Both the position numbers and the translations under genes were made by a program. A stretch of 63,904 nucleotides of DNA, counting the filler, from Octopus bimaculoides (taxonomy: Eukaryota): the NCBI RefSeq assembly GCF_001194135.2. It is 4 parts of 4 records of this genome, joined end to end, with 100 filler letters (N's around TTAATTAATTAA, not from the genome) between each part and the next. Parts side by side here need not be neighbours in the genome. Positions count along the whole stretch, not along the records: positions 16,486 to 44,459 come from NC_068987.1; positions 44,560 to 62,183 come from NC_069003.1; positions 62,284 to 63,904 come from NW_026376060.1; 1 more part is not named here. The stretch is one strand, 5' to 3'. Of the stretch, positions 18,050 through 63,640 are shown piece after piece (positions within the stretch are counted from its first letter, which is position 1; the number at the start of each line of letters is the position of its first letter). The notes beneath the pieces are model-generated. The model saw only the letters and a list, made by a program, of their open reading frames with translations, ran no database searches and was not told the DNA's origin.

Positions 18050-18090
18050 AATATCCAACGTTTCCGATGTAATCCTTCATCAGTGGGTAT
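18050..18090 (-). ncRNA. degenerate type I hammerhead-like motif in the PLE pLTR
   Basis: ATACCCA-CTGATGA-A-GGATTACATCG-GAA-ACGT-TGGATAT; core intact, stem II has a mismatch and one junction base appears to be missing. Confidence 0.55.
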
Positions 18091-19244
18091 CGTTGTTTTA
18101 AAATGCGTTCTTGAAAATATCAAATATAACGAAAATAAATATATGCGAACTTAAATGTCTATTTTCCAGAAGAATTTAATATTTGTAATATTGTCGTCCA
18201 TCTAAAATTTCTGAGACGCAATAGTATAATAAATTATATTCTCATGTATTTTAAGTTTTGTATGTAATAGGAAGTATTAAATTTGAAACACACATACGCA
18301 CACATAATGAGAATGCTTTTACGAAGGCATTTTCATATATCTGGAATTCATGAAGTGCTTATTTGCATATAAAATTAAATCCATTCAGTTATAATTTTCT
18401 GTTAAACATTGTTCTTCTTTTATCTCTTTTACTCCATTCTTTTCCTATTGTCAGAAAATGTTTAAAATCGTTCAAATTTCAAATATAACGTTTTTGCTTG
18501 AATATCAAAATCGTTTTGACCTTTAAAACTTCGAGGTGATAGCTTTCATAAAATGTGTACTTATGCTTTACTCGCTCTATCTGGGTTTGTTATTTCGTGA
18601 ATGATAACTACATATTTTATAACCAGCTTGAACTATTACGGGTCCGCTCCATATGTCTGTGTAGTTGGGAAATATCGTCAGGAACCATGTTTTCCCTAGT
18701 TCGATCCCATTTCACGTGCGCCAGGTAAATGCCTCGTAGTATACATTCAGACCGATATTATATATATTATTCTTTCAATAAAGTTTGTAATATGGAAACT
18801 GCGCCGAAATTCGCCAAGTACGTAGCGTCTGAGTAATTTGCTTTGGTGACTAACGTAAGAGTATAAGCGAAACGCTACGCATTTCCATATCTCTCACTTT
18901 AAACGCTATAATATCATATTAGCAAATTAATATAGAACAGTATTATACTTTCTACACCTTTCATGTACTATTGGTCTATACATATTAATCCAATTCTAAG
19001 AATGTTTCGGAGATATCAATACAATTTAAAGTAAACTAATTAAATGATTACAGTTTCGAAATTGAATTTCAACGGCAAATAGTCATACTTATTTAACTTT
19101 TGGCTGCTAATTAATACATTTGTCATAATATTTCGGTCGGGAAAATTCGTCTCACTATATATTAATGCGTATTAATTATTATTTTACCCATAAATAAGAT
19201 CGGTCGAAAGAATGAAATTATTATAAATATACCATAACAATTTC

Positions 19245-19398
19245 AGGCAGTAAGCTGGCAGAATCATTATCACAAATTGCTTAGCGGCATTTTGCCCGTC
19301 TTTATGTCCTGAGTTCATATTTCACCGAGGTCGAATTTGCCTTTCGGGATCCATACAATAAGTGTCATTAGCACTGGGATCGATGTGTTCCACTAACC
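19245..19398 (+). mobile_element. SINE family A, decayed
   Basis: AAGCTGGCAGAATC...GCTTAGCGGCATTTTG...CTGAGTTCATATTTCACCGAGGTCGAATTTGCC. Confidence 0.8.
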
Positions 19399-19902
19399 AC
19401 TGATTATCTCAGAGAGAAATTCCGATTTGTACATAGGTGCGCCCTCAAAAAACTTCAAATTGAGACTGGCAAACAATTTAAGTTTGTTTAAGGATAAAAT
19501 TAAGATGCACAACACTAGCTTGAACACGTTCGTTTGGCCTCCTAAGGATAAAATGGATAGCGTTTGTATAGAATGGAAACAATTAGCACAGGTGCACCAT
19601 ATATAACAGGAAGAAGAAGATGTATTTATATATGGAGAAAATTTACCAGACTTTCACATCAAATCACCAGTTGCTTAACAGTAGAAATGAACGGACCTTG
19701 ATGTGTCCGTACCTGCATGGAAACATATTTAAACACTTCCATGCAGGTGTTAGATATGCCAGTATCCACTACACAAATGGGAGTTGCCTGAATTTACATG
19801 TTAAGTGTCAGTATAATATCTGGTTTAAGTTTCAATTAAATGCCGATACTCTCACCATCGTAAAATGGCTTCTTGGCAAATCATAGCAACGCATATAGTA
19901 TG

Positions 19903-20022
19903 CAATATGTTCCATATAATATAAAATAAAGTATACAGTATGTTCCATATAATATAAAATAAAGTATACAGTATATTCCATATAATATAAAATATAGTAT
20001 ACAGTATGTTCCATATAATATA
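19903..20022. repeat. 33-bp minisatellite, about 3.6 copies
   Basis: Unit CAGTATGTTCCATATAATATAAAATAAAGTATA starting at 19903, 19936, 19969 and 20002. Confidence 0.9.
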
Positions 20023-20698
20023 CAATTGAATTGTACGTACCTTTCATATGGACATCTTAAGTACGCACCGTATATTACAGATATATAATCTAATCATTCA
20101 GAATTCCATCAATTGATTCAAATAAATTTAGCTTGCTTCCATTTAATCACTTCTAATACGTAGATGAATTTGCATCAAAACACAAAGATACATATTTTCA
20201 CCGAATTTAGTGTATAGAATTCTCAGCTTCGTTCTAGAACTAAGGTTACCAGATGTGAGATATAAAATAAATTTTATAGACACAACGATTTTCAACATTA
20301 TGCCTTCATTTTCTTTTGCATCTGAAATCAGAATGAAATTTTAAAGAATGAGCTGACCACATGTAAATAAAATCACTTCGGTTCGAACGATAGTTTTGGA
20401 AAGACATTGAATGAAGGTGCATAGTAGAATGTTGCGGGTTGCATATGCAAATGCACATTCTCTATGCAGCTGAAACACATAGAGATAGTTTAGTGGGCGA
20501 AATTTCAAGTCACTGACAAAAACATTCTAGTTTAAGAACAATAAATTTTGTGTTTATACATAATTTTTCTTATTAACACACATTTGTTTTTCGTTTAATT
20601 ATAGAGGATTTTATTAAATTATCACAAATGTCTAATTTATCTGTCGCGCACACAGAAAAACAGACATACACACATACTCAAACACACACACGCATATA

Positions 20699-20706
<8 letters not shown>

Positions 20707-20767
<61 letters not shown>
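20707..20767. repeat. (TA)n microsatellite
   Basis: About 30 perfect TA units. Confidence 0.95.
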
Positions 20768-20770
<3 letters not shown>

Positions 20771-20869
20771 TATATGCATTCGCATAAGGTAATTTAATGG
20801 AATCATTCATAATCAAGCGGGAAATGTATGTATTTTAATTTTAAAAAAATTGGATCATATTTCATCGAT

Positions 20870-21800
20870 AATCATTATTCTATGAATCCGCTTTTAGCTT
20901 CGATGACTGTTGTAAGAATTCTAATTAGTTTTCCTTTCAGTAAAGCTCAACACTTAATCCGTGGTATTAAATCGAAGGAGTTTGGATGCCTCATATTTGC
21001 AGTTATATGATGGATAAGATTAACAGAGATCCATTCTACTGTTGCAGTGTCATTCTGAGAAGCTGCTGAGTTTTGGTGAAATACATATAGCCTTCAGTGA
21101 GTACTCCATCCATCTAGGGATTAACAATTGTCTGTGGCATCTATATATATACAAAGACATTAATTCTAAAACTTTGAAGAAAGATATGATAGAACATGAC
21201 CTTCCTTACTCCCTACCACTAAAACTGTGGGATCATCAGAACGATCTGCATATAGCCATCTGTAATATCTTTCTTATCTTTTGTGTTGGTAGAAAATTTC
21301 CTGTCTGATCTTTCATGTTGATCGAAACTTTCGTCATCAGATATGAATTAAAGCATTGCGTGTTCGTGCGGTTTTTTAACTTTGTTAAGTAACCGCTTGA
21401 CACGGCTCAAACGGTTTCCTTGTGTCTTTTACGGCAAGGAGAGGACTCTCCTTAGGACATTTGACTTGTACCAAATGTCCTCATGCACCACAGTTCTCAT
21501 AGTCTATTCCGACACCTGCAATTCTTTGGTGATTGACATTCCTAGGAATCATAAATGAACCTGTGTGATGAATTGCGGTTTCATTATAGCTTACGGACGT
21601 TTAGCATGTTTTTCCTTTTTAAGACAATTCAAACACTCCTACTTGAGGCCTTCAGTTCCATTCGAACGTCGCGTACAGAAGAGTTTGCAAAGTTTAGTAA
21701 CTTAATAACTTATAACTCATTGAAACCTGCACATATCGCAATAATGACTGCACTTCTTGTAATCGTGCTAGTACTTTCTCTGGGGGATCCGAAAGAAATA
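20870..21800 (-). mobile_element. Tc1/mariner-superfamily transposon relic (maT/DD37D-like)
   Basis: MRTVVHEDIWYKS...NRLSRVKRLLNKVKKP; SDDESFDQ; EGHV; YVFHQNSAAS; HPNSFDLIP (WPPNSPDLNP-like); VIEAKSGFIE*; many frameshifts. Confidence 0.8.
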
Positions 21801-22339
21801 AACTTTTTTCAGTTGGTTTCAAATACGCAACACACTGATAACTATAAATGCGTGTGTTCATGTGTGTATGTGTGCGTGTGTGTGTATGTGTATTCATATG
21901 TCTGTGCGTGCTCGTGCCTGCGTGTGTACTCATGAACAATTATTACCTAATATTTGTGAGTATCTCTGCGTGTATTTCTTTTATTGCTAATTGTTTGTTA
22001 CCAAAGACGGCCTTCCGTTTCCTTCGAAACATCTGGGCCCGTCTAACAATACATCTCCTTTGTCCTTGAATACAACTATTTAAAAACGAAATTGTGCTAG
22101 CACTGGATGTGTGTAATGTGATGTCATATGAACAGTGAAGGAAACAGAATAGTAAAAGTGTGTAATAAAAACTAGGGTGGATAGATCAATAGGTAGAAAG
22201 AATAAGACTAAAGTGGAATGAGATGTGATGATAGTATTGAGATGACAGTACTGAAAGTGAATGACAATAGGTGTGTTGGAATGGGAGTGGTGACGGTAGT
22301 GTTAATAATGATGATAGGGCTATTGCTGACGTTGAGAGT

Positions 22340-22400
22340 GTTGTTGTTGTTGTTGGTGGTGGTTGTGATGAAGCTGATGATGATGATGATGTTGATTTTG
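22340..22400. repeat. mixed (GTT)/(GGT)/(GAT) trinucleotide tract
   Basis: Direct inspection. Confidence 0.85.
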
Positions 22401-23466
22401 ACCACGGCGCTGATTGTCTGTTTGAAAAATGATGGGTGAGTAGATGGTGAATATCATACTCATTGTGTTAATAACAGTGATAATAAAGAATTTTATAATA
22501 GTCATGCTAACCGTAGTGATGATGCTGGTGTTTAAGATCATGTCCTCGATAAAAAACGTGCAGAGAAAAACGTATTTTGGAATATGTGTAAGATGTTGTG
22601 AACTTGTTTATTGATAACAGCACAGATAGCGATATGAACGTATGCCCAACACATCTCTTACCAATAATATTATATATTGTTTAGTATACCTGCTTCCTAA
22701 CAACGAAATATTTTATCCATTATTTTAAACTGGATTTCCTAACACTATTTTATATTATCATTACTAACCCTATCACAATTAGTAGCGTTAATATAACACT
22801 TTGGTCTGCCACTTTAAGAAACGCCAATTATTTAGTGTCTGATGTATTCATGATCAAAAGGATATGGAATAAGTTGGAACCACTAAATAATTCATACTGA
22901 CACACAATATCATTTACTTGTGGTCTTTATTCATAGTGATATTTTCACGATAGATAAATATATAGATATATATCGATATAAATATATAGAGATATGGATA
23001 TATATATATATATATATATANNNNNNNNNNNNNNNNNNNNNNNNNNNNNNNNNNNNNNNNNNNNNNNNNNNNNNNNNNNNNNNNNNNNNNNNNNNNNNNN
23101 NNNNNNNNNNNNNNNNNNNNNNNNNNNNNNNNNNNNNNNNNNNNNNNNNNNNNNNNNNNNNNNNNNNNNNNNNNNNNNNNNNNNNNNNNNNNNNNNNNNN
23201 NNNNNNNNNNNNNNNNNNNNNNNNNNNNNNNNNNNNNNNNNNNNNNNNNNNNNNNNNNNNNNNNNNNNNNNNNNNNNNNNNNNNNNNNNNNNNNNNNNNN
23301 NNNNNNNNNNNNNNNNNNNNNNNNNNNNNNNNNNNNNNNNNNNNNNNNNNNNNNNNNNNNNNNNNNNNNNNNNNNNNNNNNNNNNNNNNNNNNNNNNNNN
23401 NNNNNNNNNNNNNNNNNNNNNNNNNNNNNNNNNNNNNNNNNNNNNNNNNNNNNNNNNNNNNNNNNN

Positions 23467-23497
<31 letters not shown>

Positions 23498-23509
23498 GAT
23501 ATATGCACC

Positions 23510-37323: not shown

Positions 37324-37646
37324 GCTTTACATAATTTTGTATAAACGGAGCTGAGTTCATACGCTAGTCAGCATTTTTCCTTTTAAAGACCGCAAGTCGT
37401 TAGAGGATGTAAAGATATATAAATATAGGAACATAAATGTAGATATATACGCGTGGTCATTTGACCGGGACCTACAGAAGGTAAATATTCGCTTTAAGTG
37501 TAGAGGTGTATTTTTCCAATGAGTGAATGAGTGTATAAATGTTTCCATATTCAATTTATTAGATATTCCTATTCATCAATAAAAAATAAGTTTTTTATTC
37601 CGTTATATATGTATATAAGTGTGTGTGTTCTTCTGTGTGTGTGTTC

Positions 37647-38574: not shown

Positions 38575-38804
38575 TTTATACTCTACGTTCCACATTATTA
38601 GACAAACCAACCTCCTCTCAATAAATAAATGTATATTCATTCAAAACCAGTCCTTTTCCCGCTGACTGTTTAGAACCACCTCTCTGAGCATATTCTTTTA
38701 AAATTAATCGGTTCTGCGCAGACGAAAACAAACGGCGGCCATTATCATGTAGTAGGAACATTTCTGCTGTCCCAATTTATTTGGCAGCTGTCCAATTTAA
38801 GTGG

Positions 38805-39578
38805 CATATTCAGTTCATTGGCAGAAAGGTTAACATCATACATGAAGAATTCCACCCACTTCACAGAATTGATCAAGAACACCCCATTGAATCCAACCAG
38901 ATGGTGAGTATAGATGTGATAAGCCTCTTCACCAAAGTCCCAACTGGTGAAGCACTATTGGTGATACAAGAAACACTAGTGACAGACACCCATCTAAAAG
39001 AACGCACCAGTATATCAATAAGAAACTTGATGGAAATGTTGACCTTCTGTGTAGAAACTACCTACATCTGCATGGACACTGATATATATCGAAAACAGGA
39101 GGGTTTAGCTATGTGTTCGCCATTATCACCGGTAATAGCTAAAATATACATGGAATACTTTGAGAATTTGGCTTTAGGATCAACACCACTGAAACAATCA
39201 CTTTGGCTACGATATGTTGATGACACCTTTATACGCTGGCCCCAGCAGGAAGATGTCCTAGTGTTGTTAGATCATGCGAACTCAATAAAACCATCTATAC
39301 AGTTCACAATGGAAAAGGGAAAAGGCAATCAGCTGGCATTCCTGGACGTATTAATAACACGCACCAAGTATGGATTCAGCACATGGGAAAACGGAGTCCA
39401 CCTCCCTCGGTTGGATGAAGTTAAAATAATAGACAGAGAACACCACTGGAAAATACGAAAACCAAATGAGGCAGTACATATGCTAGGACACAACAACCTC
39501 CTAAGCAGACCGAGTGCAGATATGAACAGCATATGGGAACCGGTATTAAGGAAGAATGGAAGAATATTAGATTTATAA
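38805..39578 (+). mobile_element. Penelope-like element RT fused in-frame to the GIY-YIG tail (Penelope/Poseidon-like)
   Basis: MVSIDVISLFTKVP; QEGLAMCSPLSP; WLRYVDDTF; SIQFTMEK...LAFLDV; abrupt jump near 39384 to ...IIDREHHWKIRK..EAVH; frameshifted at the 5-prime end. Confidence 0.9.
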
Positions 39579-39608: not shown

Positions 39609-39853
39609 AGCATATGGCGTAGTGGTTAAGAAAGCGGGCTACTAACCCCACGATTCCGAGTTCGATTCCAAGCAGAACAATAATAATAATGATAATAATA
39701 ATAACAACAACATCGAAAAATACATTAGGAATGAGAACCCAGGTTCGAAACTTCCCCAAGACACCTGAAGAAGGCTGGAGGGTATATCAGAAGAAACGTG
39801 TTAACAACGAGCAAGATGAGGACAAATATCCGTCGAATGTAAATAATGTAAAT
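39609..39853 (+). mobile_element. tRNA-headed, (AAT)n, hammerhead-bearing unit (copy 2), directly after the PLE ORF
   Basis: TGGCGTAGTGGTTAAG (A-box), GTTCGATTCC (B-box), (AAT)n, GACAC-CTGAAGA-A-GGCTG...CAGAA-GAA-ACGT-GTT. Confidence 0.8.
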
Positions 39854-40139
39854 GGTGAAAATGTTGCCCAATTACAAAAATGTCCGCCATTTATTGGCAG
39901 ACCCGGTTTATTTTAACAGAATGTGCGCAGATAGGTGTTGTCACCTGTCAGTGCGAAAAAAACTAGCTTTGAACGAATATTGGGAACGAATATTGAGAGA
40001 TGTTTGATTTGCCTAATAATGTGGGACGCAGTGTATTTTATCACTAACTGGTTAAAGATGAAATACATTCGACTAGTAGCATTCTGAGGCACAACCTTGA
40101 GGAATATTTTGGAATGAATCGGTCTAGTATATATATTTT

Positions 40140-45477: not shown

Positions 45478-45625
45478 AGTTGTTGGTACTTATTTTATCG
45501 ACCCCGAAAGGCTGAAAGGGAAAGTAGCCTCGGAGGAATTTGAACGCAAAACGTAAAGACAGGCGAAATGCTGCCAAGCATGTTACCCCACGTGATAACG
45601 ATTTCGGCATTTCCTCGCTGCCAAT
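45478..45625 (-). mobile_element. SINE family A
   Basis: GGTACTTATTTTATCGACCCCGAAAGGCTGAAAGG...GGAATTTGAAC...CTCGCTGCC. Confidence 0.85.
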
Positions 45626-46684
45626 AACCACGGATAAAATAACTACGAAACATGCAAGTGCAAAGAGGGAAACAAAATAGAAGAAATAAACCGCACATGG
45701 CGCGCAAACACACAGACACCTGCGCGCGCACACACAGCAATACACACATGCTACCATACATACGCACACAGACGTCAACGCACAAACACACTGAGGAGCC
45801 ATACACAAACATACCTGCGCATTTATACATGTATTCACACTGATACAACCACACATACAGTTACTCAGTTAAAACACAGATGCTTGCAAAGGAATACAGG
45901 CGCTCACACATAGACACAAATGCAGCAGGAAAAGTTAATGATATAAAAAAAGACAAAAAAAAAAACATGCAGATCGTATTAAAAAAAAAAAGTTGCAGCA
46001 AGAAAAAACGAAGGGAAAAAATGTACCAAAATTAGAAGTTGAAAAATAAAAGTAATATAAAACCAATATTCAATAAAATGTATAAAGTTCAGTGGAATGA
46101 TGCTCCGATATAAAATCGAAACCTCTAAGACGAGATGATGATTGGATTCCGAACATGGCAAAGGTGTAAAATAGCCAACGTTTGATGTCTTGTAGTTATT
46201 GGAGAAAGAAAGAAAGAAACGGGGAAAAAAGGAAACAAAAAAACCCCAAATGAAAGAAGCAGTATATAGCAGATTAACGTCAAAATATATAAACCGAGTG
46301 AAATTGTAGCGCTGATATATATATATATATATATGTACAGGTGCGTATAGTGTGTGTGTGTGTGTGTGTAAATGTGTGTCTGTGGGTGTGCACGCCCATA
46401 TATTTACGTATATGTGCGCGGTGAGTGCTTTGAAGTACAAACGATTCCATTTAACAGCATTCTCTATAGTCTCTACTTATTCTAATATAAGAATGTGACG
46501 CTCAGATTATGCCCTAATGATGAGGTCAAATATGGCCGGAACATGCTCAGTTTTGTCGCCCTACTTTATCATAAACCTGTCTAACTTCTTACCGTATTGT
46601 GTTTTTAATGAATATAATTAAAATTAAAATTAATTACATTAAAAAGCCGGACAAAATGCTTAACAATATTCCGTCTGGACGTCC

Positions 46685-46950
46685 TCAGTTCAAGGGCTGC
46701 TGCGGTTGATTTGCATTCCTTCCTTTCGGGGTCGATAAAATACGTTGCAGTTTAACATTGAGATCGACAAAATCAATTCCCCCTCCCCTGAAATTACTGG
46801 CCCTGTGTAAAAGTTTGCAGCCAGGTCTTTGAGCTGGCAGAATCGTTTGCACGCCGGACAAAACGCTTAGCGGCATTTCGTCCGCTTTTACGTCCCGAAT
46901 CTAAATTCCACTGAGGTCTCTTTGCCTTTATTCGTTTCGGATTCGATAAA
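46685..46950 (+). mobile_element. two SINE family A pieces (3-prime half, then 5-prime half)
   Basis: CCTTTCGGGGTCGATAAAATA...CTGGCCCTGTG (to about 46815), then GAGCTGGCAGAATCGTTTGCACGCCGG (from about 46831). Confidence 0.8.
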
Positions 46951-48039
46951 ATGTTTCATGCAGAGGGAGCCCCTAGGCAACTTGGCCTCGAGGTTTCCTT
47001 TTATCCTTCACTTAATGTCCCATTTATTTTTTTGTTTCAGATGTTGTGTAACCCAAAGTCTGTCCTGATTGAGCAGGTATTTGATGCAAGACATTCCATT
47101 CGTAACCATCTCGTCTGTTACATAAATGATTTGCTAGTGATTCCTTTTATTTTTATCTTCAGAGTGGGATTGGTATTTTACCAAAGTTGGTCATTGTTCA
47201 CAACCTATCAAACAATCACAAAGACAATCCTTGCGGTATTGATGAGGCAATGGTTCGCTGATAAGGTCTGATAAAACCGAAATAAGTTCCGAAGTATCTC
47301 TGTAATACCAAAGAACGAATCCATTGCGCCATTGCATACTATTTTTAATTACTTTTAATTAATTAAAATTCAGAGTTATCTGCCTCGATATCTTTGGCTT
47401 GCAGTAAGTTAAGTCATTGAAAATAATTCGCTTCCTTATTAGTATTGACGAGATTATAACTAATTGAGATTGTAGCTAATTGACACTTTTCGCGTCACTG
47501 TGTTTAATATGTTAGCACCTGCCTACCCTCCACCTCCCACCAACACACACACACACACACACACCCATAGTATACACCTTCGTAACCAGTGCTCAAATAA
47601 CCGGAACACTCAAGCAATCAGCATCACAAATTGACAAAGAAAATGTGTTGTTAATTAGAGTTAAGAGAATTTGTGCTAATTTGTGTTAATTAATTGTCAT
47701 TACAAGAAAGTCTCTCCTGCATCTAAAATGGATCTCTGCTTCCGTGAATATAATGTTTTGTTTCACTGCATTTACGCTTCCTGTATTTTATCTGGGAAAA
47801 TTCTTTACTTTAATTCAACTTTTATTCCTTCCTCTTTCGACTATATTCGAAATATTAATGGCAAAACTGGTGTNNNNNNNNNNNNNNNNNNNNNNNNNNN
47901 NNNNNNNNNNNNNNNNNNNNNNNNNNNNNNNNNNNNNNNNNNNNNNNNNNNNNNNNNNNNNNNNNNNNNNNNNNNNNNNNNNNNNNNNNNNNNNNNNATA
48001 TACTTTATTTTATTTAAAAGCAGCAGAAATATAACAAAT

Positions 48040-48083
48040 AAACCGTTACTCTGAGTTTCACGTTCCCGTTCATCGGACAGTTT
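48040..48083 (-). ncRNA. minimal type I hammerhead ribozyme motif (U4C core)
   Basis: AAACTGT-CCGATGA-ACG(GGAA)CGT-GAA-ACTC(A)GAGT-A-ACGGTTT; all three stems pair; GUA cleavage triplet. Confidence 0.75.
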
Positions 48084-48093
48084 TGCTTACTCC

Positions 48094-48140
<47 letters not shown>

Positions 48141-50546: not shown

Positions 50547-50874
50547 TACACGCATATATGCACATACAAACGTACACATGCATATGTGCATATCAGTACT
50601 AGTACATGTACACACAAAAACACACCGGCACACGCATGTACGTACGCATGCTTATGCAAGTATGTATGTATAAATATGTCTGTGTGTATATTGGCGTGTA
50701 GGCGTATATGTGTAAAGATGTATGCGTATAAATACATATGTAGGTATTTAAATACACACTCACACACATATATATATACATATATATTTGTGTGTACATG
50801 TATCTATCTATGTATATGAATTATATACATATGTGTCCGTGTATATATATAATTATATATATATATATGGGAGA

Positions 50875-51040
50875 ATATACAAATAATAACAACAGACGAG
50901 GACAGGTGGTGTAAATAACAAAAGTATATATTAGTATGACGCTCGGGAATACGGAAAGTCTTTGACGTTTCGAGCTACGCTCTTCAACAGAAAGAATACG
51001 GAGACAAGGAGAAAAACACGGAGAAAAAAAATGGAATAGT
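50875..51040 (-). mobile_element. short pLTR-like element carrying a hammerhead motif, no ORF
   Basis: About 165-bp non-microsatellite island between (TA)n tracts, centred on the HHR at 50959-50995. Confidence 0.55.
50959..50995 (-). ncRNA. minimal type I hammerhead ribozyme motif (A6U core)
   Basis: TCTTT-CTGTTGA-A-GAGC(GTA)GCTC-GAA-ACGT-C-AAAGA; GUC cleavage triplet; loop-less palindromic stem III. Confidence 0.75.
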
Positions 51041-51289
51041 GTTCAGTCAACGATATATAAGTGCATATATTTTAAGTATGTATATGCACAAAACTCATGC
51101 CTCCATACGTGTGGTTCTCTATGGTTATGTTTGAAGGAAAATAGACTTATGAATAGATCAGCGGAGTCATCATGCCTGCAATATTTAGTTACGTAAGCGC
51201 GTACACAGAGGCACACTGACACACTCTCACGCGCATATATATATATATATGCATATATAAATANNNNNNNNNNCATAGGAGGGACAAAC

Positions 51290-51462
51290 AAAGGGATTAA
51301 GTCGATTACATCGACCCCAGTGCGTAACTGGTACTTATTTAATCGACCCTGAAAGGATGAAAGGCAAAGTCGACCTCTGCGGAATTTGAACTCAGAACGT
51401 CACGGCAGACGAAATACCGCTGAGCATTTCGCCCTTCATGCTAGCGATTCTGCCAGCTCACC
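51290..51462 (-). mobile_element. SINE family A, well preserved
   Basis: GTCGATTACATCGACCCCAGTGCGTAACTGGTACTTAT...GGAATTTGAACTCAGAACG...GATTCTGCCAGCTCACC. Confidence 0.92.
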
Positions 51463-53555: not shown

Positions 53556-53598
<43 letters not shown>

Positions 53599-53669: not shown

Positions 53670-53709
<40 letters not shown>

Positions 53710-53834: not shown

Positions 53835-53881
<47 letters not shown>

Positions 53882-54194
53882 TATACACATGCATATATAT
53901 ACATACATGCCCATACATACATACATACATACATACATACATACATACATACACATGCATATATATATATACATACATGCCCATACGTTCATACATACAT
54001 ACATACATACCCATACAAATGTACGTATATACATACGTATATATACATACCCATACATATATATACATATATACACATACCACACACACATATACACATG
54101 TAAAATTGTAAAACGAGAAGGTAGACTTAACATTTTCAGATGATAAGCAATCCAGTATAAATATGCATCTTTATAGAGCAAATATACTCAGATT

Positions 54195-54780: not shown

Positions 54781-55245
54781 AATATTTTGCACATAAAATT
54801 TTCGACGTCCATCTTGGAAACAGAAGAGAAAAATATCAGAAACAACAAAACATTGTTGCATAGTTTCAATAACTCTCCGGTTTCGGTCATTTGACTTTCA
54901 TGATGGTTGGTAACAGGTTAGAAAGGTTGTAGCTGAATAGATCAAGGCAAGTACAAGACTGATACTTGATTGATTGATATGAAACAAGATAAAAAAATAA
55001 AGTGAAACGAGCCGGAAACTGTATTCAGAACGTGAGAGACCGAACNNNNNNNNNNNNNNNNNNNNNNNNNNNNNNNGCATGTGTATATATGTATATCTAT
55101 CTATCTATATGCTCCTATACATATGTGTATTCATATGCAGATGAATGTATGTGTGTGTGTGCAAATACACACATACGGATAAATGCGGATTAATATATGT
55201 ATGCCACTATTTATGTAGGTATGTCTGTACGTGTACTTATATATG

Positions 55246-55294
<49 letters not shown>

Positions 55295-56415
55295 GTATCA
55301 TTATATACGGGTATGCGCGCCCGTGCGTGTGTGTATGTGCGCACATATGTAAATACATTTAAATTACATTGCTAATTAAAATGGAATGCGTGCACGAGTT
55401 TTCGGCACACATAGAGATAGAGATAAAGTGAAGTGGAAACATAGCGAAATGAACGAGAGAAGATAAGAAATAAAGGATGAAGAAATGAGGAAGAAAATAG
55501 GAAGAAGATAAGAAAAACCGGAGGTAGATAAGAAGGCGAAGAGGAAGAAATTTTGTCTGAAATTAAAATGGTGCCTTTCTTGAGGCAGTCTTGTTGATGA
55601 TGTGAAAATCCGTAATTATCTACGCGCTCGCCTTCACCTTATATTTCTTCTATTTTCTCCACTCTTATCTTATTTTCTCTTCTCTCTTTCTCTCTCTCTC
55701 TCCCTTTCTCTTTCTTCCTTTAGTTCTCTCTCTCTCTCAATTATTTCTCTCTTTTCTCTACTTAAATATCTTCAGCAAATGTACGGCAATAAAAGTTTCT
55801 CAAGTTTTTTAATTTCGTTGACGATTTCGATAAATGCATGCAAAAAGTGTACACTATCGTGGAAGCATATCATCTCTATCGTCTGGTGTCGTGTCATGTT
55901 GAATGAGAGAGAGAGAGAGAAGGGATGATTAGGATGATGAGAAGAGATGATGGTTCCGTGTACGCATAAAAAGAAGAGAATAAAGAATGGATGGTGGAGG
56001 TGTGGGGACGAGGGGTAAGTAGAAAGATGAGAGGAAGAGAAGCAGGGAAGAGAATAATAGAAACAAACGTAAATAAGAACGACAATCAAATAATAATAAT
56101 AACAATAGCAATAATGTTAGTAATAATAATGATAATAATAACAATAAATGATGATTATGATGAGGATTTTTTCCTGTAGTCTAATCTGTTGAAATAATAA
56201 TAACTATTATTATTATTATTTCAACTGCAATAACAACAAGAACTACAATAATGAGGGTAATAGTGATAATGGTTGTGATGATGATGATGATGATGAAGAG
56301 TATTGTCAACTGGATAAGAAATTTAAGAACTGGATAAGACGCTGCGTACAGGTGGGAGACACGCTTGCGATTCAAAGCAGTCTCCACCATTCCGTACTCT
56401 GCGCATTGTCTGCAT

Positions 56416-56452
<37 letters not shown>

Positions 56453-56759
56453 CACAATCGCACACAAAAGAACACGCACGCACACACACACTCATGTATA
56501 TGCGTATATACATGTATAGCTATATATATATATATATGCTTATATACATGTACGTAGGAATATATATATATACACACGCGCGCGCGCTATGTATATGATA
56601 AGAAGATGAGATGATAAAGGAAGAAACGATTATCTCATGAAATTCATTAGCTTACAGTGGTTTCTGCTATATAATTCAGTGGGCTCAGTTGAGTGCCTGA
56701 GTAACAACTTATAGCAGTCAATTCCCTGCCCTATATCTGTATATATATATATATGTTTA

Positions 56760-56802
<43 letters not shown>

Positions 56803-57799
56803 TTATATATATATACACACACGCACACAAACATATATATATATGGATTTAATTAAATAAGTAGAAAAGAAAATTATTCATTTTCAGTTTAGAAGATTAA
56901 AAAACAGTGCTTCCGGGTTGTTGGCGCATCCTAATCTGATCACATTTCCAAGAGGACTTGTGAAAGGTATGTGTGTGCGTGCGTGCGTGTGTTTTTATAT
57001 GTGTGTGTGTGTGTGTATTTGTGAATGAGTATATATTAGTGCATGTGTGTATATGAACGCGCGCCTATGTAAGTATGTATGTATATACACACACACACAT
57101 ATATATCCCATCACAGACACATATACACCCGCATGCATATATATCTATATGCATTAAATCATGCATTGAATATTGAACAATTGTTTTGGCATTATTGTTG
57201 GAATCGACTTTATTGAATTTCGGACCTTAATTCATAAATGTTTTCCAAGAACGTCAAACTAAAAGAAATTAAACACTGTAACACTATACATCGTGGAACT
57301 ATTCCTATAACAATGGCACCTTCTCGAGCCTAATATAACGAAACATTAAATATATGCTGTGTACTTTGGTAATTCTCTACGCCTGTAGAGTTCTTCGTCC
57401 TCTCTTCGCAATAAAACCCGGTGTGGTAGATCTTCTGGTACAAATTAAACTGCAATCATTGTCAACAGGTAAAATCAGTCGTCAATCTGTGATTGTCTTG
57501 GAATTTCCTAACTTAGGTTCTATGAGTGCTGGTTTTTATTTTGCTTTGGTCCCTGTTGATAGACGCTGTAACGTGGGTCCCTCTATGTTGCTGCACCTCG
57601 TGCTAGATATAACAGCTAAATCGCATTGAAATTACACGCTGATGTCTTGATGTGTGTCGAATGCACTGCATAAAGCGCAGATCTACAGGGAAGAATATTC
57701 CAGAGATACACGAAAGGGCTTTGGTTGAAAGACTTTTGAATATAGGTTTACTTAGTCAAGGCCGAACAGAGGATACAACAGACGATAACAACTACATCA

Positions 57800-58150
57800 A
57801 CAATATCGCCGCCGCCGCCGCCGATTTTCATCTGCCTTGGTGTTTATGGTTGGTTCAGAGACTATTTCACTTTGCTTATCAGTTATATTGACTCTTTCAA
57901 TCATTACTACATTTTCATCAGACCTGGGTTGGTCTATAATTATTCCTTCTGTAGTATCTTCTTTAGCTGCAGTTTCGTTCCCTTTATCCCTTACTGCTTG
58001 TCTAATTTGGTCAATCTCTAATTCAGTCAGTAATATTTTTTTTATAGTGTTTCCTCTGACGTTGGTAAGTTTGTTTCTGTCCATTTAGGATCTTACTTCA
58101 AGGTGCTTCTGTCGCCAGTTTAGGTAGGTGTGCTCAGTATTAGATTTATT
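57800..58150 (-). mobile_element. R4/Dong-clade non-LTR element, N-terminal fragment
   Basis: TYLNWRQKH.EVRS*MDRNKLTNVRGNTIKK..LTELEIDQIRQ resembles the N-terminal region of Dong/R4 ORFs. Confidence 0.55.
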
Positions 58151-58707
58151 GTTGTTGAGTATCATTCTTCTTATTGTTATTACATATGTCTGTATTCGTA
58201 ACGTAAGTGCCTTCTCCCGCACACATATATACACAGAGATAGATGGAGAGAGAGAGAGAGAGAGAGATAGAGAGAGAGAGAGATAGAGAGATAGAGAGAG
58301 CGGAGCAGTTGGCAGCCAGACTCTTTGTAATACAGATAAGAAATTCGAGCGTTCGAAGAACATTGTCTAAATTAATCTTCAGGAAATTTCCAAGAACAGT
58401 TCCACATGCGTAATATCGCTGGAGACTGAAATTACAACCAAAGAATAACAATAACCACTTCTTTCTTCACTTGGTATCAATTCCACAATTTGATATAATG
58501 TCACCTTCCTCATACGTCCACACCCCCGCCGATCGATTCTGCCTACATTATAAACGGCTCTTTTACTAACCCGGAAACTTGTATCATGTAGCGTCTTTCA
58601 TTCAAAAACATTCAATCCCATATGGCTTTTAACTACAATCTTCTATTTCACTAGCGCCCCCTAACCAATCTCCTCCAAACTCCACTTTTCTTATTTTGAT
58701 GCAATGA

Positions 58708-58922
58708 AAGGCAGCGAACTGGCCGAATGGTTAATACTCCAGGCAAAATGTTTGGCGGCATTTCGTCCGTCTTTACGTTGTGTGTTCAAATTCCACCGAG
58801 GTCGACTTTGCCTTTTATCCTTTAGGGCGCGATAAAATAAGTTCCAGTTGGGAACTGCTGTCAATAAAAACGATTTCCTCCTCCCCCAAATTTGCTGGCC
58901 TTGTGCCAAAAGTTGAAACCAA
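58708..58922 (+). mobile_element. SINE family A with 16-bp TSD
   Basis: GGCAGCGAACTGGCCGAATGG...GTTCAAATTCCACCGAGGTCGACTTTGCC...GCTGGCCTTGTGCC; TSD TATTTTGATGCAATGA (58692-58707 and 58923-58938). Confidence 0.9.
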
Positions 58923-59101
58923 TATTTTGATGCAATGATTTACAGATTTCCATAGAATTGCTTCATTACGTTTAATGATGGAGATTAATTTATGAATCCT
59001 CGATTTTGTCTCCTTATTTGGGTTGTTTCAAAGTGTAGAACTTCATCTTGTTTCATTATGTTAAAAATATCGACAGTTAAAGTTGTTAAAGTATTGCAGT
59101 A

Positions 59102-59313
59102 TTTCAAAGTTTGGCACGAGGCCAGCAATTTCAGGGGTGGGGGAGGCAAGTCGATTACATCAATCTCCACAGTTCAATTGGTACTTATTTTAGCGATCCT
59201 GAAAGGATAAAAGCCAAAGTCCAGCTCGGTGGAATTTGCAGTCAGAACGTAAAAATGGACGAAATGCTGCCAAGCATCTCACTTGGCTAACGATTCTGCT
59301 AACCCACCTCCTT
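59102..59313 (-). mobile_element. SINE family A
   Basis: GGCACGAGGCCAGCAATTT...GTCGATTACATC...GGTACTTATTTT...GGAATTTG...AACGATTCTGCTAA. Confidence 0.85.
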
Positions 59314-59349
59314 CAAACGTCCAATTATATTGTCATCAGGAATTCGTTG

Positions 59350-59422
59350 TTACTTTATTCCGTCGATCCCAGAAGGATTAAAAACAAAGTTGGCTTTGGC
59401 AGAATTTGAACTCAAAACGTAG
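59350..59422 (-). mobile_element. SINE family A fragment
   Basis: GTCGATCCCAGAAGGATTAAAAACAAAGTTGGC...GAATTTGAACTCAAAACGT. Confidence 0.65.
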
Positions 59423-59446
59423 TCAGCAGTGACAAATAACGATCCT

Positions 59447-59519
59447 ACATTTGATAATTTCTTATTTAGACATTTGATAATTTCTTATTTAGACATTTGA
59501 TAATTTCTTATTTAGACAT
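59447..59519. repeat. perfect 23-bp tandem triplication
   Basis: ACATTTGATAATTTCTTATTTAG x3 plus ACAT. Confidence 0.95.
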
Positions 59520-59751
59520 AACGCCCACAATTTTGAGAGAGTTAATCGATTAAATCCACTCCAGTACTTGACGTGAGTTTTATTTCACAGACCTGCATAT
59601 AGGTGAAAGGTATTATTGATCTTTGCAGTATTTGAATTCAGAACCTAAACACTCATATTGATTAGACCTAGTAACCTAATTTGTCCGAGGTTCTTAATAT
59701 TCTACCATTGAAAAATTTCAAATTAATACAACAAATCAATTTATAATATCA

Positions 59752-60090
59752 ATCTGGCGCATCGACCGCAAACCCGGGTATCGCCGACTGTAACACAGAG
59801 GAGAGACAGATCAAGAAGTACAGGGACCGAACCGACCGCCATCAGCTTATGTCGGTCGCTGTCGGGACCGCGGTTGTTCTCGGATCCCGTGCTGTCGATT
59901 TCTTTTGCCAAATCGGGATAATTGCAGCCCGTTTGAGAAATGAACCCCACCATGAAGGATGGCTGCTGCAGCAAGGGTCACTGGCCATTCTCCGTGGCAA
60001 CGCCTTTTCAATCTTGTCTGCGAGGCGCGCCTGACCCTGTTTACACACCACTCGCACCTTCGAATGCTTCATTCTTCTTCCCACATTTGT
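59752..60090 (+). mobile_element. CRE-clade (REL-endonuclease) retrotransposon 3-prime end
   Basis: PGIA...EERQIKKYRD...LMSVAVGT..VLGSRAVDFF.QIG...WLLQQGSLAILRGNAFSIL resembles the KxxKY...PVAVET.G...QRxSxAxQRGNAxxI terminus of CRE elements; locally GC-rich. Confidence 0.75.
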
Positions 60091-60171
60091 TTTCCTTGTT
60101 TCCTTGGTGAGGTAGTTTTGCGGTTTTATTCTCCATAATCTGATCGTTAACCCTTTTCATGTTTTTTTTCA

Positions 60172-60650
60172 TTCATGAAGAGATCAATTGGAGGAAGGGG
60201 ACTGATAAGTGTGGAAGACTGCTTGCGTATCGAACTCGAGAGTTTAAAGAGATATTTAACTCAAAGTAGGGAAACCTTGCTAGTGACGGTTAGGAACGAG
60301 GGAGTAGTGAGAGAAGAGAAAAAAAGGGAAAACAAAGGAAGGAGTACAAAGAGGAGATGGAGAATTATGTAAGAAGGGACTAAACAATCAATTCCATGTA
60401 GCCACAACAGAAGTTGCTGGAAAGAATAGGTGGGATTGGCTGATGAAAGGAACCCTAAAAGAGAGATGGAGAGCACTATATTGGCAGCGCAGGACCAAGC
60501 TCTGGTCACGAACTGGAGGGTCAACCTGAGGAATGAGCAAGTGTCTCCACTGTATCGTATCTGCAACGGAGTGGATGAAATCATTGACCATTTTACGAAC
60601 GAATGCCGTAGACTCACCCAAAACCAATACAAGCTGTGGCAGATCGATTC
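60172..60650 (+). mobile_element. R4/Dong-clade non-LTR element, C-terminal fragment
   Basis: MKRSIGGRGLISVEDC; LKREMESTILAAQDQALVTN; RICNGVDEIIDHFTNEC (decayed CCHC knuckle). Confidence 0.8.
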
Positions 60651-61229
60651 GACTTACCAGTGATCTTTGATTAATCAGCTCCGAAATGATAAAATGCAAA
60701 AGATCGCACATAGCCGCTATTTGAACCCAGAACACCTAAGGGAGGTAGCAAATACCTCAGGGTATTTTAATCCCACAGTGTGGTTTCCTATAATTATTAC
60801 CTAATTATACTAATCAACTACAAACCTGCCTCCCTATTTAGACATTGCATTATCAGTCCTCCTTTGTTTTTATCTCCTGCGGTCGACTCCTTCTTCTCTC
60901 ATTCTCGTAATCTTCGCCCTTCGCCGCGTTTCTTTGTTTTCTTATTGCGGCGATTCGCCTTCTTCCGATCCGTTCCCTTCCTCTGCCAAACCACATCTCA
61001 CATAAGTCCTAATCTGTTGATATATTTATGGGGAATTAAAATAACGATATGCCGCGAGGAACAGCCACAACAACAACGAATATTAGCAAGATAACTAGAT
61101 TCTATACTCCACGCACCTTCTTAACACACACACACACGTTTGTCTATATGTGTGTAAACGTATGTTTTATATATACTATATATGCATACGCGTGTGAGTG
61201 AATGTAAATATATTTTATATGTGTGTGTG

Positions 61230-61372
61230 TGTGGTTAGAAGATTGCTCCTTAACCATGTGGTTTAGGGCCACTACGCTACGTACCACCTTGGCCAACTGT
61301 CTTCTACTATAGCCTGGGGTCACCCCAAAGCTTGTGAGTGGATTTGGTCGACGGAAACTGAAAGACATATAC

Positions 61373-61409
<37 letters not shown>

Positions 61410-61618
61410 CTTTGTGTTTGTCCCCCACCACCGCTTGACAACCGGTGTTGGTTTGTTTAGGTCCACGCAAGTCAGCGGTTCGGCATTAGCGACCGATAGG
61501 ATAAGCACTAGACTTTACAAAATATACCATGAATTGGGGGCGAATTTTTCGAGACCAAACTCTTGAAGGTGGGGCCCCAGCATGGCCGCAATCCAAGGAC
61601 TGAAATAAGTAAAAGCTT
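61230..61618 (+). mobile_element. SINE family B, decayed
   Basis: CACCTTGGCCAACTGTCTTCTACTATAGCC...GTGAGTGGATTTGGTCGACGGAAACTGAAAG, (TG)n, CCAGCATGGCCGCA...GACTGAAATAAGTAAAAG. Confidence 0.85.
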
Positions 61619-62094
61619 AAAGATGTGTATACATACATACATATATTTATATATACATGTATATATTCACATATATGTATATATACATCTATTTATATAT
61701 ACACATCTTATCTTATATATATATATATATATATGTGTGTATGCATAAGGAATGCATGAATATATGCCTGCCTATGTGTACACAAAAATATACACATGTA
61801 TACGCATTGCAACTATACACGGTCCACCGTCACACAGTATACATAATTACATATGTTACACAAGAAACAGAATCCCTAATCCTGTTAATCCTTCTCACGT
61901 CTCAGCCCTTAATCCCAAACAAACTAAGCCATCGTGTCTGTTGCGAAAGATTAAAAAAAACATTAAATACACATCATATTATTGTGTGTATATATATGGG
62001 AGAAACTGCACGTGTACATGCGCACACGCACACATGTATATGGATATATGTGTTCGCATATACATAACATACATCATTATAAATTCATGTGCTC

Positions 62095-62095
<1 letters not shown>

Positions 62096-62183
<88 letters not shown>
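62096..62183. repeat. (TA)n microsatellite
   Basis: About 44 units ending at a gap. Confidence 0.95.
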
Positions 62184-62283
62184 NNNNNNNNNNNNNNNNN
62201 NNNNNNNNNNNNNNNNNNNNNNNNNNNTTAATTAATTAANNNNNNNNNNNNNNNNNNNNNNNNNNNNNNNNNNNNNNNNNNNN
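62184..62283. other. artificial scaffold gap with six-frame-stop linker
   Basis: 44 N + TTAATTAATTAA (62228-62239) + 44 N. Confidence 0.95.
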
Positions 62284-63640
62284 GGTCGCGGGCATAAATT
62301 AGGGACTTATTTAATAGGATAGGTGAAATACTAACATAATAATTAGATATATAGAATTGTATAAACGAAAAGTCTCTCTTACATTGGATAGAGTTGAACC
62401 AAATCAAAACGTCCTCAGTATTGACCCATATGTTGAGTGGGATGTGAGGTTTAATTCGTGGAATTACTCCGTCTAGGATAGTTTTACTTAGTCTGCCTAT
62501 GTCTGATTTAGTAGGGCATATAAGCCTCACTTGTAATTTCTCTGGGAATCCTGTCTTATGGTCCTTAATAGTAATCCATGGTTCCTGGGGGATGAGTGGC
62601 TCCGTCCTTTCTAGTAAATTTAGCTTGGACGTGACTTCCTTTATTTTGTTGTTGATTTCTATTAGGTTATCTGATGACGTTACCTTGTATTTTTTATGGA
62701 GTTCCTTAACTATTAGCGATTTGTATGTATTAAAGTCCAGTTTATACCAGTTACCTGTTTTGTCTGCTGGTATGATTAAATTATCTTCATTTTTTATGGA
62801 TTTTAAAAACTGTTTTAGTTCGTCCAGGTGGTTGTTGCTAACAGTACTGTGTTTTTTTTAGTTTGATTTTTCCTATAAATTCGAGGATATCCTTTTCGAA
62901 GCTTTCTAGTTCGGAGTTCGGTGGTGGGTTTCTTCTACTTTTAAATATTTTCTTGTTCATGATATCCTCCTGGTTGGTGCTTGGTTTGTTTTTATTTTTA
63001 TTGTCAAAGTGATATGCGGCCCATCTAATTCACCTCAGGAAATCCGTGGTCCTGTGGATAAGGGCCGTCATGTAGGTGTCGTCCGTGTGTAGTGGTATGT
63101 CCTTGGGAGAGAAATTGGTGTGAATCCTTTGTATCATTGTTCATTTGTCAAGTATTAAAAGTTGACGTGGGCATGTAAATACCAGTCAGATGGACAACGT
63201 GAATCACGTAGGTAAATTGAAATTTAGAGGTAATACTTGACAATTGTAAGCACCTGTATATTCCAGCTAGTGGTTGCGGTAAAAGAATAAATTGTAAATC
63301 CCAAAAATAACAACAAAACTACAAAGGATTCCGCGGTACACGTGTTTCAAGCTTTATATGTGTATAATATAATATGTGTATAATTTACAATGTAAAGCTA
63401 TCCTCAGCCGCAAAATTATTTCTCTCCCTGGAAATTATACCACCTCGGCGTTGAAGTAGGAAGAAAGGTGTGATGTAAGGGGTGAAGATCCTTTCGGTAT
63501 TCTGTATAGTACTATACCTCGTATCATTCTCCACCCAGACATAATCTCTCTGGTCCTCCGAAAACCTTCCATACCTTGCCACGATTCAGTGTGTAGTGTT
63601 AAGTTGGTGGTTAAGAACAATACAATACAATAAAAAGACA
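62284..63640 (-). mobile_element. Penelope-like element 5-prime part with upstream pLTR/HHR
   Basis: FSPKDIP...ALIHRTTDFLR*IRWAAY; FKSRRNPP..ELESFEKDI; IIPADKTGNWY; IKDHK..FP...VRLICPTKSDIGRLSKTILD; WVNTEDVLIWFNSI...FIQFYISNYYVSI (FDIxxFYPSI-like). Confidence 0.85.
63328..63416 (-). ncRNA. type I hammerhead ribozyme motif with long stem II loop
   Basis: ATTTTGCGG-CTGAGGA-T-AGCTTTA(36 nt)TAAAGCT-T-GAA-ACACGTGT-A-CCGCGGAAT; 9-bp stem I, 7-bp stem II, palindromic stem III, GUA triplet. Confidence 0.8.

What the first reader, a model, noticed from the sequence alone, without database searches (positions are those of the whole stretch)
18050..63416. Candidate system: PLEs and short non-coding partners carrying several different non-canonical, dimer-type hammerhead ribozymes
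Seen in the sequence: six type I HHR motifs in 45 kb with unrelated stems (18050, 35722, 39760, 48040, 50959, 63328; the two at 35722 and 39760 are one family). Three lie next to PLE ORFs and three stand alone. The three that fold completely each deviate differently from the canonical core (U4C with A10.1-U11.1; A6U with an extra A; U10.1.U11.1). All have a palindromic or 0-1-nt-loop stem III. Established knowledge: PLE pLTRs carry minimal type I HHRs that cleave as dimers in tandem transcripts, and HHR-bearing non-autonomous elements (retrozymes, schistosome SM-alpha, newt satellite 2) exist. Inference: octopus may host several HHR-processed, PLE-mobilised short RNA families whose variant cores would be missed by searches requiring CUGAnGA.
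Basis: partly seen in the sequence, partly recalled or inferred. Interest (0 to 1): 0.8.

Follow-up and report, generated by a model that had tools for sequence, protein, structure and literature searches.

The report
Octopus repeat with fixed mutant hammerhead
The six motifs are end-pieces of known Penelope-type jumping genes, but one sits in a very abundant, roughly 185-base repeat whose copies in three related organisms nearly all share a change in the ribozyme's catalytic core, likely a disabled ribozyme that is copied around the genome without being cut.

Summary
All six motifs are real; three fold completely (3 found, 0.3 expected in shuffles). They are not one system but terminal (pLTR) hammerheads of at least three Penelope-like element (PLE) types. 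U10.1·U11.1 and the 0-2-nt stem III loop are the norm of Hydra-clade PLEs and are in print; the extra A is the published PLE hallmark; three motifs are simply decayed. The new result: A6U (50959) is not decay. It lies in a ~185-bp non-coding unit flanked by (TA)n, with depth about 6x10^4 times single-copy, and no other letter reaches 5% at that position in four runs from three organisms. Published mutagenesis predicts low activity, and PLE insertion in vitro needs no cleavage, so I read it as a PLE-mobilised, SINE-like repeat with a crippled ribozyme rather than a self-processing RNA. U4C (48040) is a Hydra-type end fragment; family status unresolved. No cleavage or circular-RNA evidence. The scan noted a different PLE core variant before, in another genome.

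The parts
50868..51052 (-). About 185-bp non-coding unit between (TA)-rich flanks; very high copy number; ends 96 nt downstream of the hammerhead cut site
   Evidence: summed contig depth 2-3x10^6 (X1) and 0.5-1.5x10^6 (X5) over 50881-51036, against about 20-150 in the flank beyond 51063; loose ends run into TA-rich sequence on both sides; for the 96 nt
50959..50995 (-). Minimal type I hammerhead with A6U (position 50987), extra A after A9, G10.1-C11.1, palindromic 2-bp stem III; cut site would be between 50964 and 50963
   Evidence: no other letter at 5% or more at 50987 in any of 4 runs; N17 varies C/U
47998..48095 (-). Short Hydra-type terminal fragment next to (TA)n and an N gap, holding the U4C hammerhead (48040-48083; C4 at 48075)
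   Evidence: stem III identical to several Hydra-element hammerheads; 77% over 44 columns to L012; part of its 8 sampled words held by runs of organisms A, B and C
63328..63416 (-). Hydra-clade pLTR hammerhead, canonical CUGAnGA core, U10.1.U11.1, long stem II, 4-bp loopless stem III
   Evidence: same form listed in Craig 2021 File S2
62284..63116 (-). Broken Hydra-clade PLE reading frame (N-terminal part and start of RT, DKT motif), cut by an assembly gap
   Evidence: tblastn to P0168 residues 2-279, E 8e-48; clade definition
38797..39578 (+). 5'-truncated, internally deleted PLE reading frame (RT, then the last residues of the endonuclease); Penelope/Poseidon type by recalled motifs
   Evidence: RVT_1, E 2e-5, below cut-off; P0151 residues 330-525 and 709-764, 48-73%
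39615..39857 (+). pLTR directly after the stop codon: tRNA-like A box (39615) and B box 34 nt further, (AAT)n, decayed canonical hammerhead (39760-39806)
35545..35821 (+). Solo copy of the same unit, beginning at the tRNA-like head (A box 35551), with hammerhead 35720-35770 (C at G12)
   Evidence: the only two A+B box pairs in the window are in these two copies (shuffle mean 0.05, max 1 in 100)
18050..18092 (-). Decayed canonical minimal hammerhead (extra A, palindromic stem III) upstream of a broken PLE
16531..17900 (-). Broken PLE reading frame, Neptune-like by recalled motifs, ending at a (GA)n run; outer limits approximate
   Evidence: translations; tblastn 16777-17073 to P0173/P0174, E about 1e-9

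Best explanation
The six motifs are terminal hammerheads of several Penelope-like element types, and the A6U motif belongs to a very high-copy, fixed-length non-coding repeat that is likely copied by a Penelope reverse transcriptase from uncut RNA, its ribozyme predicted to be largely disabled. Shown: the motifs, their link to PLE frames, the U.U clade norm, the unit length, TA-rich flanks, copy-number contrast and fixation of U6 in three organisms. Inferred: the element is the pLTR module of a Neptune- or Poseidon-type PLE (same hammerhead type; parent not found); the PLE endonuclease nicks a TA run, reverse transcription starts about 95 nt past the cut site and runs through the hammerhead; because the copy spans the cut site, uncut RNA is the simplest template, so a core change that lowers cleavage costs nothing and may have favoured spread (intact template; less risk to host pre-mRNAs holding two copies). 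The U4C fragment would be the Hydra-type counterpart; 18050, 35722 and 39760 are decayed canonical motifs.
For:: 9048, 3180, 162 and 70 contigs laid from four runs (organisms A, B, A, C); plateau about 6x10^4 times single-copy depth in both DNA runs (ratio; the tool warns it is no true copy number); sharp ends; no row at 50987 or any of C3-A9. Frangieh 2024 (PMC11167929): a Poseidon PLE starts reverse transcription 111-118 nt into the ORF with the cut site at +26 (85-92 nt apart by my subtraction), hammerhead mutants insert normally and unprocessed RNA is the main substrate; the octopus unit ends 96 nt past its cut site. Roberts 2023 (PMC9901934): single mutants in the CUGA turn show low activity with no rescue except the C3-G8 swap; Perreault 2011: natural A6C gives low activity. 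Hammerheads of the same type (extra A, palindromic GAAACG start) lie 3' of Neptune-type frames in L020 and L058. For the U4C fragment: TA runs begin 30-103 nt past the cut in 13 hammerheads of Hydra loci, against about 45-49 nt here. Four listed contigs of run X20 bridge the A6U cut site with 31 or more letters each side (RNA status guessed, strand unknown).
Against: No cleavage assay; A6U itself was not found measured in any paper I could read. Every core and stem position other than position 6 stays canonical, and the only frequent change inside the motif is C/U at N17, both cleavable letters, which is what a working ribozyme would show (though 7 of 78 variable sites 3' of the motif against 1 of 37 inside is not significant, p 0.43). 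The parent PLE, the promoter and what fixes the 5' end are not identified; the unit has no A/B boxes. One single-copy-depth joint from 51031 back to 50868 in X1 could be a tandem copy. A low-copy canonical parent under 5% of depth, or under 80% alike, would not show.
Confidence: 0.55

Rival explanations
1. One reading: the variant cores are active as dimers (perhaps protein-assisted); tandem master copies give multimeric RNA that is cut to unit length, circularised and reverse-transcribed around the circle, which also puts the hammerhead in the middle of a fixed-length insert.
For: Fixed unit length of about 185-200 bp and conservation of all stems and the other core letters in three organisms; N17 varies only between C and U. 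Natural core variants with low but real activity exist (U4C, A6C). The PLE hammerhead of Anolis cuts only with its protein. Animal non-LTR retrozymes work this way and include many monomer copies.
Against: No head-to-tail joint at more than single-copy depth in 9048 and 3180 DNA contigs (tables 5 and 5c). CUGA-turn mutants are near inactive even in a tertiary-stabilised hammerhead, and this motif also has a 2-bp stem III. Eight of nine Xenopus retrozyme dimers with intact-looking cores did not cut.
Confidence: 0.2
2. The short units are only 5'-truncated, dead-on-arrival ends of autonomous PLEs whose own hammerhead carries the variant; there is no separate non-autonomous family.
For: Most PLE insertions are 5'-truncated and leave one terminal repeat. 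The U4C fragment has just that shape (12 nt upstream of stem I to about 45-49 nt past the cut). A U4C hammerhead sits 278 nt 3' of a long Neptune-type frame in L020 (one copy).
Against: For A6U the depth is roughly flat across the unit and stops within about 30 nt at the 5' side; loose ends there run 10-15 nt further and then into TA-rich sequence in 44 contigs of X1, not into a shared longer sequence.
Confidence: 0.17
3. All variants are private decay mutations of canonical PLE hammerheads.
For: True, as far as can be read, for 18050, 35722 and 39760. U4C is absent from 44 distinct Hydra hammerheads and from the 26 Hydra rows of Craig File S2, so it may be private.
Against: Excluded for A6U and for U10.1.U11.1.
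Confidence: 0.03

Closest known systems
[quoted passage not shown]
   Same: Type I, extra nucleotide between 9 and 10.1, G10.1-C11.1, palindromic stem III, mostly single dispersed copies in many families per genome; a core variant family (U3-A8) already described.
   Different: Their consensus keeps CUGANGA; the A6U family breaks it without a compensating change and reaches far higher depth than the 2,000-9,000 motifs per genome reported there.
Hydra-clade PLE hammerheads (Craig et al. 2021, PMC8557442; passages, Hydra section, Files S1-S2 read)
   Same: DKT motif, (TA)n insertion, no extra nucleotide, 4-5-bp stem III with 0-3-nt loop, U.U at 10.1-11.1 in 14 of 26 Hydra rows by my count; an octopus family (Hydra-1_Obim) with a hammerhead is listed.
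   Different: 63328 differs only by a long stem II; 48040 adds U4C, seen in none of those rows.
Animal non-LTR retrozymes (Cervera and De la Pena 2020, PMC7229834, passages; Li et al. 2026 bioRxiv 10.64898/2026.07.22.740005, parts 1-3 of 5)
   Same: Short non-coding units with a type I hammerhead, related to PLE pLTRs, proposed to use PLE enzymes; an axolotl family has U.U at the base of stem II.
   Different: Defined by tandem arrays, canonical active cores and circular RNAs; the A6U unit appears as dispersed monomers in TA runs with a mutated core, and no circle is shown.
Schistosome SM-alpha/Sj-alpha SINE-like elements (as reviewed in PMC6765202, passages; primary papers not read)
   Same: Pol III-type promoter followed by a hammerhead, like the 35722/39760 unit.
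   Different: Here one copy sits directly behind the stop codon of a PLE frame, which suggests the tRNA-like head is part of a pLTR; the hammerhead is the minimal PLE type.
Natural hammerhead core variants (Perreault et al. 2011, PMC3088659; passages and section 8)
   Same: U4C (viroid), A6C (phage) and U10.1-U11.1 are reported, with reduced activity for the core changes.
   Different: Those are rare single cases; A6U is not among the passages read, and here it is fixed across a very large repeat family.

Membership tests
PLE minimal type I hammerhead | Core CUGANGA and GAAA with stems I and II | tested here: met
   63328 complete; 18050, 35722, 39760 keep the core words but have broken stems or G12
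PLE minimal type I hammerhead | Canonical CUGA turn (U4, A6) in the short stand-alone elements | tested here: not met
   C4 at 48075; U6 at 50987, fixed in four runs
PLE minimal type I hammerhead | Palindromic or nearly loopless stem III | tested here: met
PLE minimal type I hammerhead | Location in the terminal repeat of a PLE frame | tested here: met
   18050, 39760, 63328; not shown for 35722, 48040, 50959, which stand alone
PLE minimal type I hammerhead | Self-cleavage as a dimer | not testable with these tools
   no assay; folding predictions did not discriminate
Hydra-clade PLE (62284-63416) | DKT in place of DKG; C-terminal GIY-YIG with CxCX5C linker | tested here: met
   DKT in the window frame; C-terminal domain seen only in its best full-length relative P0168, the window copy is cut by a gap
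Hydra-clade PLE (62284-63416) | Hammerhead of the clade's form at the clade's position | tested here: met
   553 nt upstream of the matched segment against about 430-520 nt in metagenome loci; same stem III form
Non-LTR retrozyme (A6U unit) | Head-to-tail tandem arrays | tested here: not met
   single copy in the window; no joint above single-copy depth; short contigs could miss rare master arrays
Non-LTR retrozyme (A6U unit) | Unit-length linear and circular RNAs | tested here: inconclusive
   only contigs were available; they cannot show RNA ends or strand
Non-LTR retrozyme (A6U unit) | Short, non-coding, multi-copy unit with a type I hammerhead fold | tested here: met
tRNA-derived SINE (35545 unit) | Internal Pol III A and B boxes at tRNA spacing | tested here: met
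   (box consensus recalled); the same scan hit a true tRNA-Thr with the same 34-nt spacing in L013
tRNA-derived SINE (35545 unit) | Recognisable tRNA homology | tested here: not met
   no ARAGORN gene and no Rfam tRNA match
tRNA-derived SINE (35545 unit) | Many copies starting at the head, in excess over the PLE body | not tested

The most novel reading that the evidence does not exclude
Octopods host a class of PLE-mobilised short elements built from the pLTR hammerhead module, in which non-canonical cores (A6U, U4C) are family traits that still cut as protein-assisted dimers and yield unit-length circular RNAs from tens of thousands of loci, alongside a Pol III-driven, tRNA-headed hammerhead SINE born inside a PLE terminal repeat.
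Probability: 0.15. Interest if true: 0.78.

Novelty: new variant of a known kind. Interest (0 to 1): 0.5.

Why it matters
What the hammerhead does for Penelope-like elements is an open question: Naiads lack it and an in vitro system inserts without cleavage. A family that reached the order of 10^4-10^5 copies in several octopods with a fixed CUGA-turn mutation is a natural experiment. If it does not cut, cleavage is dispensable for PLE-driven spread in vivo and the fold is kept for another reason (protein binding or priming), and such repeats are an overlooked SINE-like partner class of PLEs. If it does cut, it is a natural core variant outside the known consensus. Either way, hammerhead censuses that demand CUGAnGA miss what may be the most numerous motif in these genomes. 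The other variants are known.

Tried and rejected
Exact pattern scans for the A6U family found nothing in viral, prokaryote genome or metagenome contigs, nor for the U4C motif in viral contigs; a relative of the Poseidon-type protein was not found in viral contigs. Rfam gave no hammerhead or tRNA match. Repeat finders returned microsatellites and gaps only in the rows shown. One search listed no holder on record as RNA; this says nothing on expression, and its small shares (3-6 of 8 words) do not tell which words cover position 4. A predicted 4-bp mispairing of the U6 core with stem III (P 0.78-0.97 in the 37-mer) was dropped as an argument: it falls to about 0.1 in the whole element and the canonical control also misfolds. 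An alternative register for the 50959 core (U3.G8) was rejected by eye because it leaves no stem I. The twofold depth step in the RNA-guessed runs near 50972 was not used, since contig depth cannot rank parts. The joint 51031 to 50868 may be a local duplication in a subfamily, as similar short back-joints end at 51000-51012. The idea that 63328 is a hammerhead in a Naiad (reported to lack them) was rejected: the frame has DKT and no room for an N-terminal endonuclease. No hammerhead was found 3' of the endonuclease fragment at 29814-30433. Earlier scan notes: one related note by words, none by place or sequence. Papers not held: Lunse et al. 2017 (known only through the review) and Nelson and Uhlenbeck 2008. 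Supplements not seen: Cervera 2020 and file 1 of Cervera 2014; these, Repbase/Dfam and the Zenodo library of Bonar 2026 may already hold these repeats.
Full report
Observation. A descriptor that allows one deviation and demands stems I and II finds three, at 48040, 50959 and 63328, all on the minus strand, against a mean of 0.3 (max 2) in 40 shuffles. The other three have the core words but broken stems or a lost G12. Rfam finds none of them (150 of 223 matches listed) and monomer folding is no better than shuffles, as expected for motifs of 37-90 nt with almost no stem III. The window is rich in microsatellites and gaps. The best named protein hits are from Argonauta hians, in line with an octopod source.

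The PLE frames. tblastn with four relatives places PLE coding remains at 16777-17073 (minus), 29814-30433 (minus), 38797-39554 (plus) and 62288-63116 (minus). [quoted passage not shown] Neptune and Poseidon labels for the others rest on recalled motifs.

63328 is an ordinary Hydra hammerhead. In 47 of the 78 a hammerhead lies about 430-520 nt upstream or 1.9-2.3 kb downstream of the match; 44 sequences are distinct; shuffled zones gave 0 hits in 20 rounds. Position 10.1-11.1 is G-C in 18, U.U in 17, G.U in 5, A-U in 2 and C.A in 2; stem III has 4-5 pairs and a 0-2-nt loop in all 44; 42 have CUGAnGA and none has C4 or U6. Because that scan required pairing, I repeated it with core words only: 47 distinct matches in 41 loci, stem I paired in 181 of 188 cells against a shuffled mean of 98 (max 117 in 2000), U.U in 15 of 47. 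Many loci are close relatives, so these are not independent counts. The same form, with U.U in 14 of 26 Hydra rows by my count and an octopus Hydra family among them, is in File S2 of Craig 2021; U10.1-U11.1 is also in Perreault 2011 and a U.U stem II base in an axolotl retrozyme.

48040 is a Hydra-type end fragment. Its stem III is identical to that of several Hydra loci and it aligns to L012 at 77% over 44 columns. It starts 12 nt upstream of stem I at a (TA)n run and ends about 45-49 nt past the cut at a gap; in Hydra loci TA runs begin 30-103 nt past the cut in the 13 cases that had one within 250 nt. Runs of three organisms hold 3-6 of its 8 sampled words, so the element is likely shared, but I cannot tell whether C4 is. 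U4C is known from a viroid, with much reduced activity in vitro. One well-paired U4C hammerhead lies 278 nt behind a long Neptune-type frame in L020.

50959 is the real result. I laid four of the 24 listed runs on 50868-51235 at 80% likeness and a 5% listing threshold: X1 (organism A, DNA), X5 (B), X17 (A, RNA guessed) and X20 (C, RNA guessed). 9048, 3180, 162 and 70 contigs were laid. Summed depth over the unit is 2-3 million in X1 and up to 1.5 million in X5, against tens in the flank; the ratio is about 6x10^4 in both, a rough figure since the tool warns that the sum is no copy number. Both ends fall off within about 30 nt and loose ends run into TA-rich sequence. No other letter is listed at 50987 (position 6) or at any of C3-A9, the extra A, stem I, G10.1 or stem III. 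Inside the motif the listed changes are N17 C to U (33%, 89%, 10%, 90%), G12A (0.3-5.8%), C11.1A (6.5% in X17 only, two contigs) and one extra base in loop II. So A6U is the family norm in three organisms. Stems do not covary; they are invariant. Seven sites vary at 10% or more in the 78 nt downstream against one in the 37-nt motif, which is not significant (p 0.43). No head-to-tail joint above single-copy depth is listed; one joint (51031 to 50868, depth 55) is ambiguous. A canonical subfamily below 5% of depth or below 80% likeness would be unseen.

How it likely works. The insert spans the cut site, so its template was either uncut or a re-ligated circle. Frangieh 2024 (parts 1-2 of 4 read) showed for an Anolis PLE that reverse transcription starts inside the RNA 85-92 nt past the hammerhead cut (my subtraction), that hammerhead mutants insert normally, that uncut RNA is the main substrate, and that the ribozyme cuts only with the protein. 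The octopus unit ends 96 nt past its cut. Mutations in the CUGA turn gave low activity with no second-site rescue except the C3-G8 swap (Roberts 2023, passages), and natural A6C is slow. The hammerhead type (extra A, GAAACG palindrome) is the one found beside Neptune- and Poseidon-type frames in the window and in L020 and L058. I therefore infer a non-autonomous pLTR module copied by a PLE enzyme into TA runs from uncut RNA, with a crippled core (0.55). The parent element, promoter and cause of the fixed 5' end are unknown. The retrozyme-like rival with an active variant (0.2) fits the fixed length and the C/U-only change at N17 but lacks tandem arrays; the truncation rival (0.17) fits U4C better than A6U.

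The 35722 and 39760 copies share, upstream of the hammerhead, a head with Pol III A and B boxes 34 nt apart and an (AAT)n tract. These are the only two such box pairs in the window (shuffle mean 0.05); the same scan over 258 kb of Hydra loci hit once, on a true tRNA-Thr with the same spacing. ARAGORN and Rfam do not call the heads. In one copy the A box lies 37 nt after the stop codon of the PLE frame, and the whole stretch sits between two inverted arms (38578-38717 and 39897-40036, 74%); the other copy begins at the head. This resembles schistosome SM-alpha (review passages) and suggests a SINE arising from a pLTR, but it rests on two decayed copies.

Known or new. PLE minimal hammerheads, their extra nucleotide, dimer architecture, dispersal as single copies, and PLE-related retrozymes are in print. 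I found no natural A6U hammerhead and no description of these octopus repeats as hammerhead carriers in searches (listings) or in the supplements searched; Lunse 2017, the paper most likely to list PLE variants, was not held, and repeat databases could not be searched. A 2026 Octopus vulgaris repeat annotation (parts 1-2 of 3 read) lists 893 unclassified recently active SINE families, and I saw no mention of ribozymes in those parts. An earlier scan note concerns a U3-A8 PLE variant in another genome and also judged it largely known. Verdict: new variant of a known kind, interest 0.5.

Noticed in passing
window 38578-38763 and 39858-40036: Inverted arms of about 140-190 bp (74% alike) enclose the truncated PLE and its pLTR; either a MITE-like element interrupted in its centre or a PLE inverted terminal copy.
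   Followed up: partly
window 29814-30433 (-): Linker and GIY-YIG end of a Neptune-like PLE (47-50% to P0173/P0174); no hammerhead found in the 900 nt downstream.
   Followed up: partly
window 1253-2456 (+): Broken pogo/Tigger-type DNA transposase (HTH_Tnp_Tc5 and DDE_1).
   Followed up: no
window 5540-5649, 7806-8292, 13029-13223, 15625-15835, 45484-45628, 46830-46952, 51299-51462, 58711-59308: At least ten copies of one 150-200-bp dispersed repeat, 72-87% alike, probably a SINE; a second family with a CA tract lies at 6663-6927, 15273-15559, 30770-31250, 36949-37329 and 61228-61621.
   Followed up: no
window 19418-19579 (+): Weak tblastn match (E 3e-4) to the endonuclease part of the Hydra protein P0168; may be another PLE remnant.
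   Followed up: no
L020:800-5600 and L058:426-5470: In both loci a Neptune-type PLE with its 3' hammerhead is followed directly by a Hydra element; the L020 Neptune hammerhead (2904) is a well-paired U4C variant.
   Followed up: partly
L064:2103 (+): A Hydra hammerhead with the U3-A8 core covariation together with U10.1.U11.1.
   Followed up: no
window 50945-50953 and 50996-51004: A 9-nt direct repeat flanks the A6U hammerhead on both sides; role unknown.
   Followed up: no
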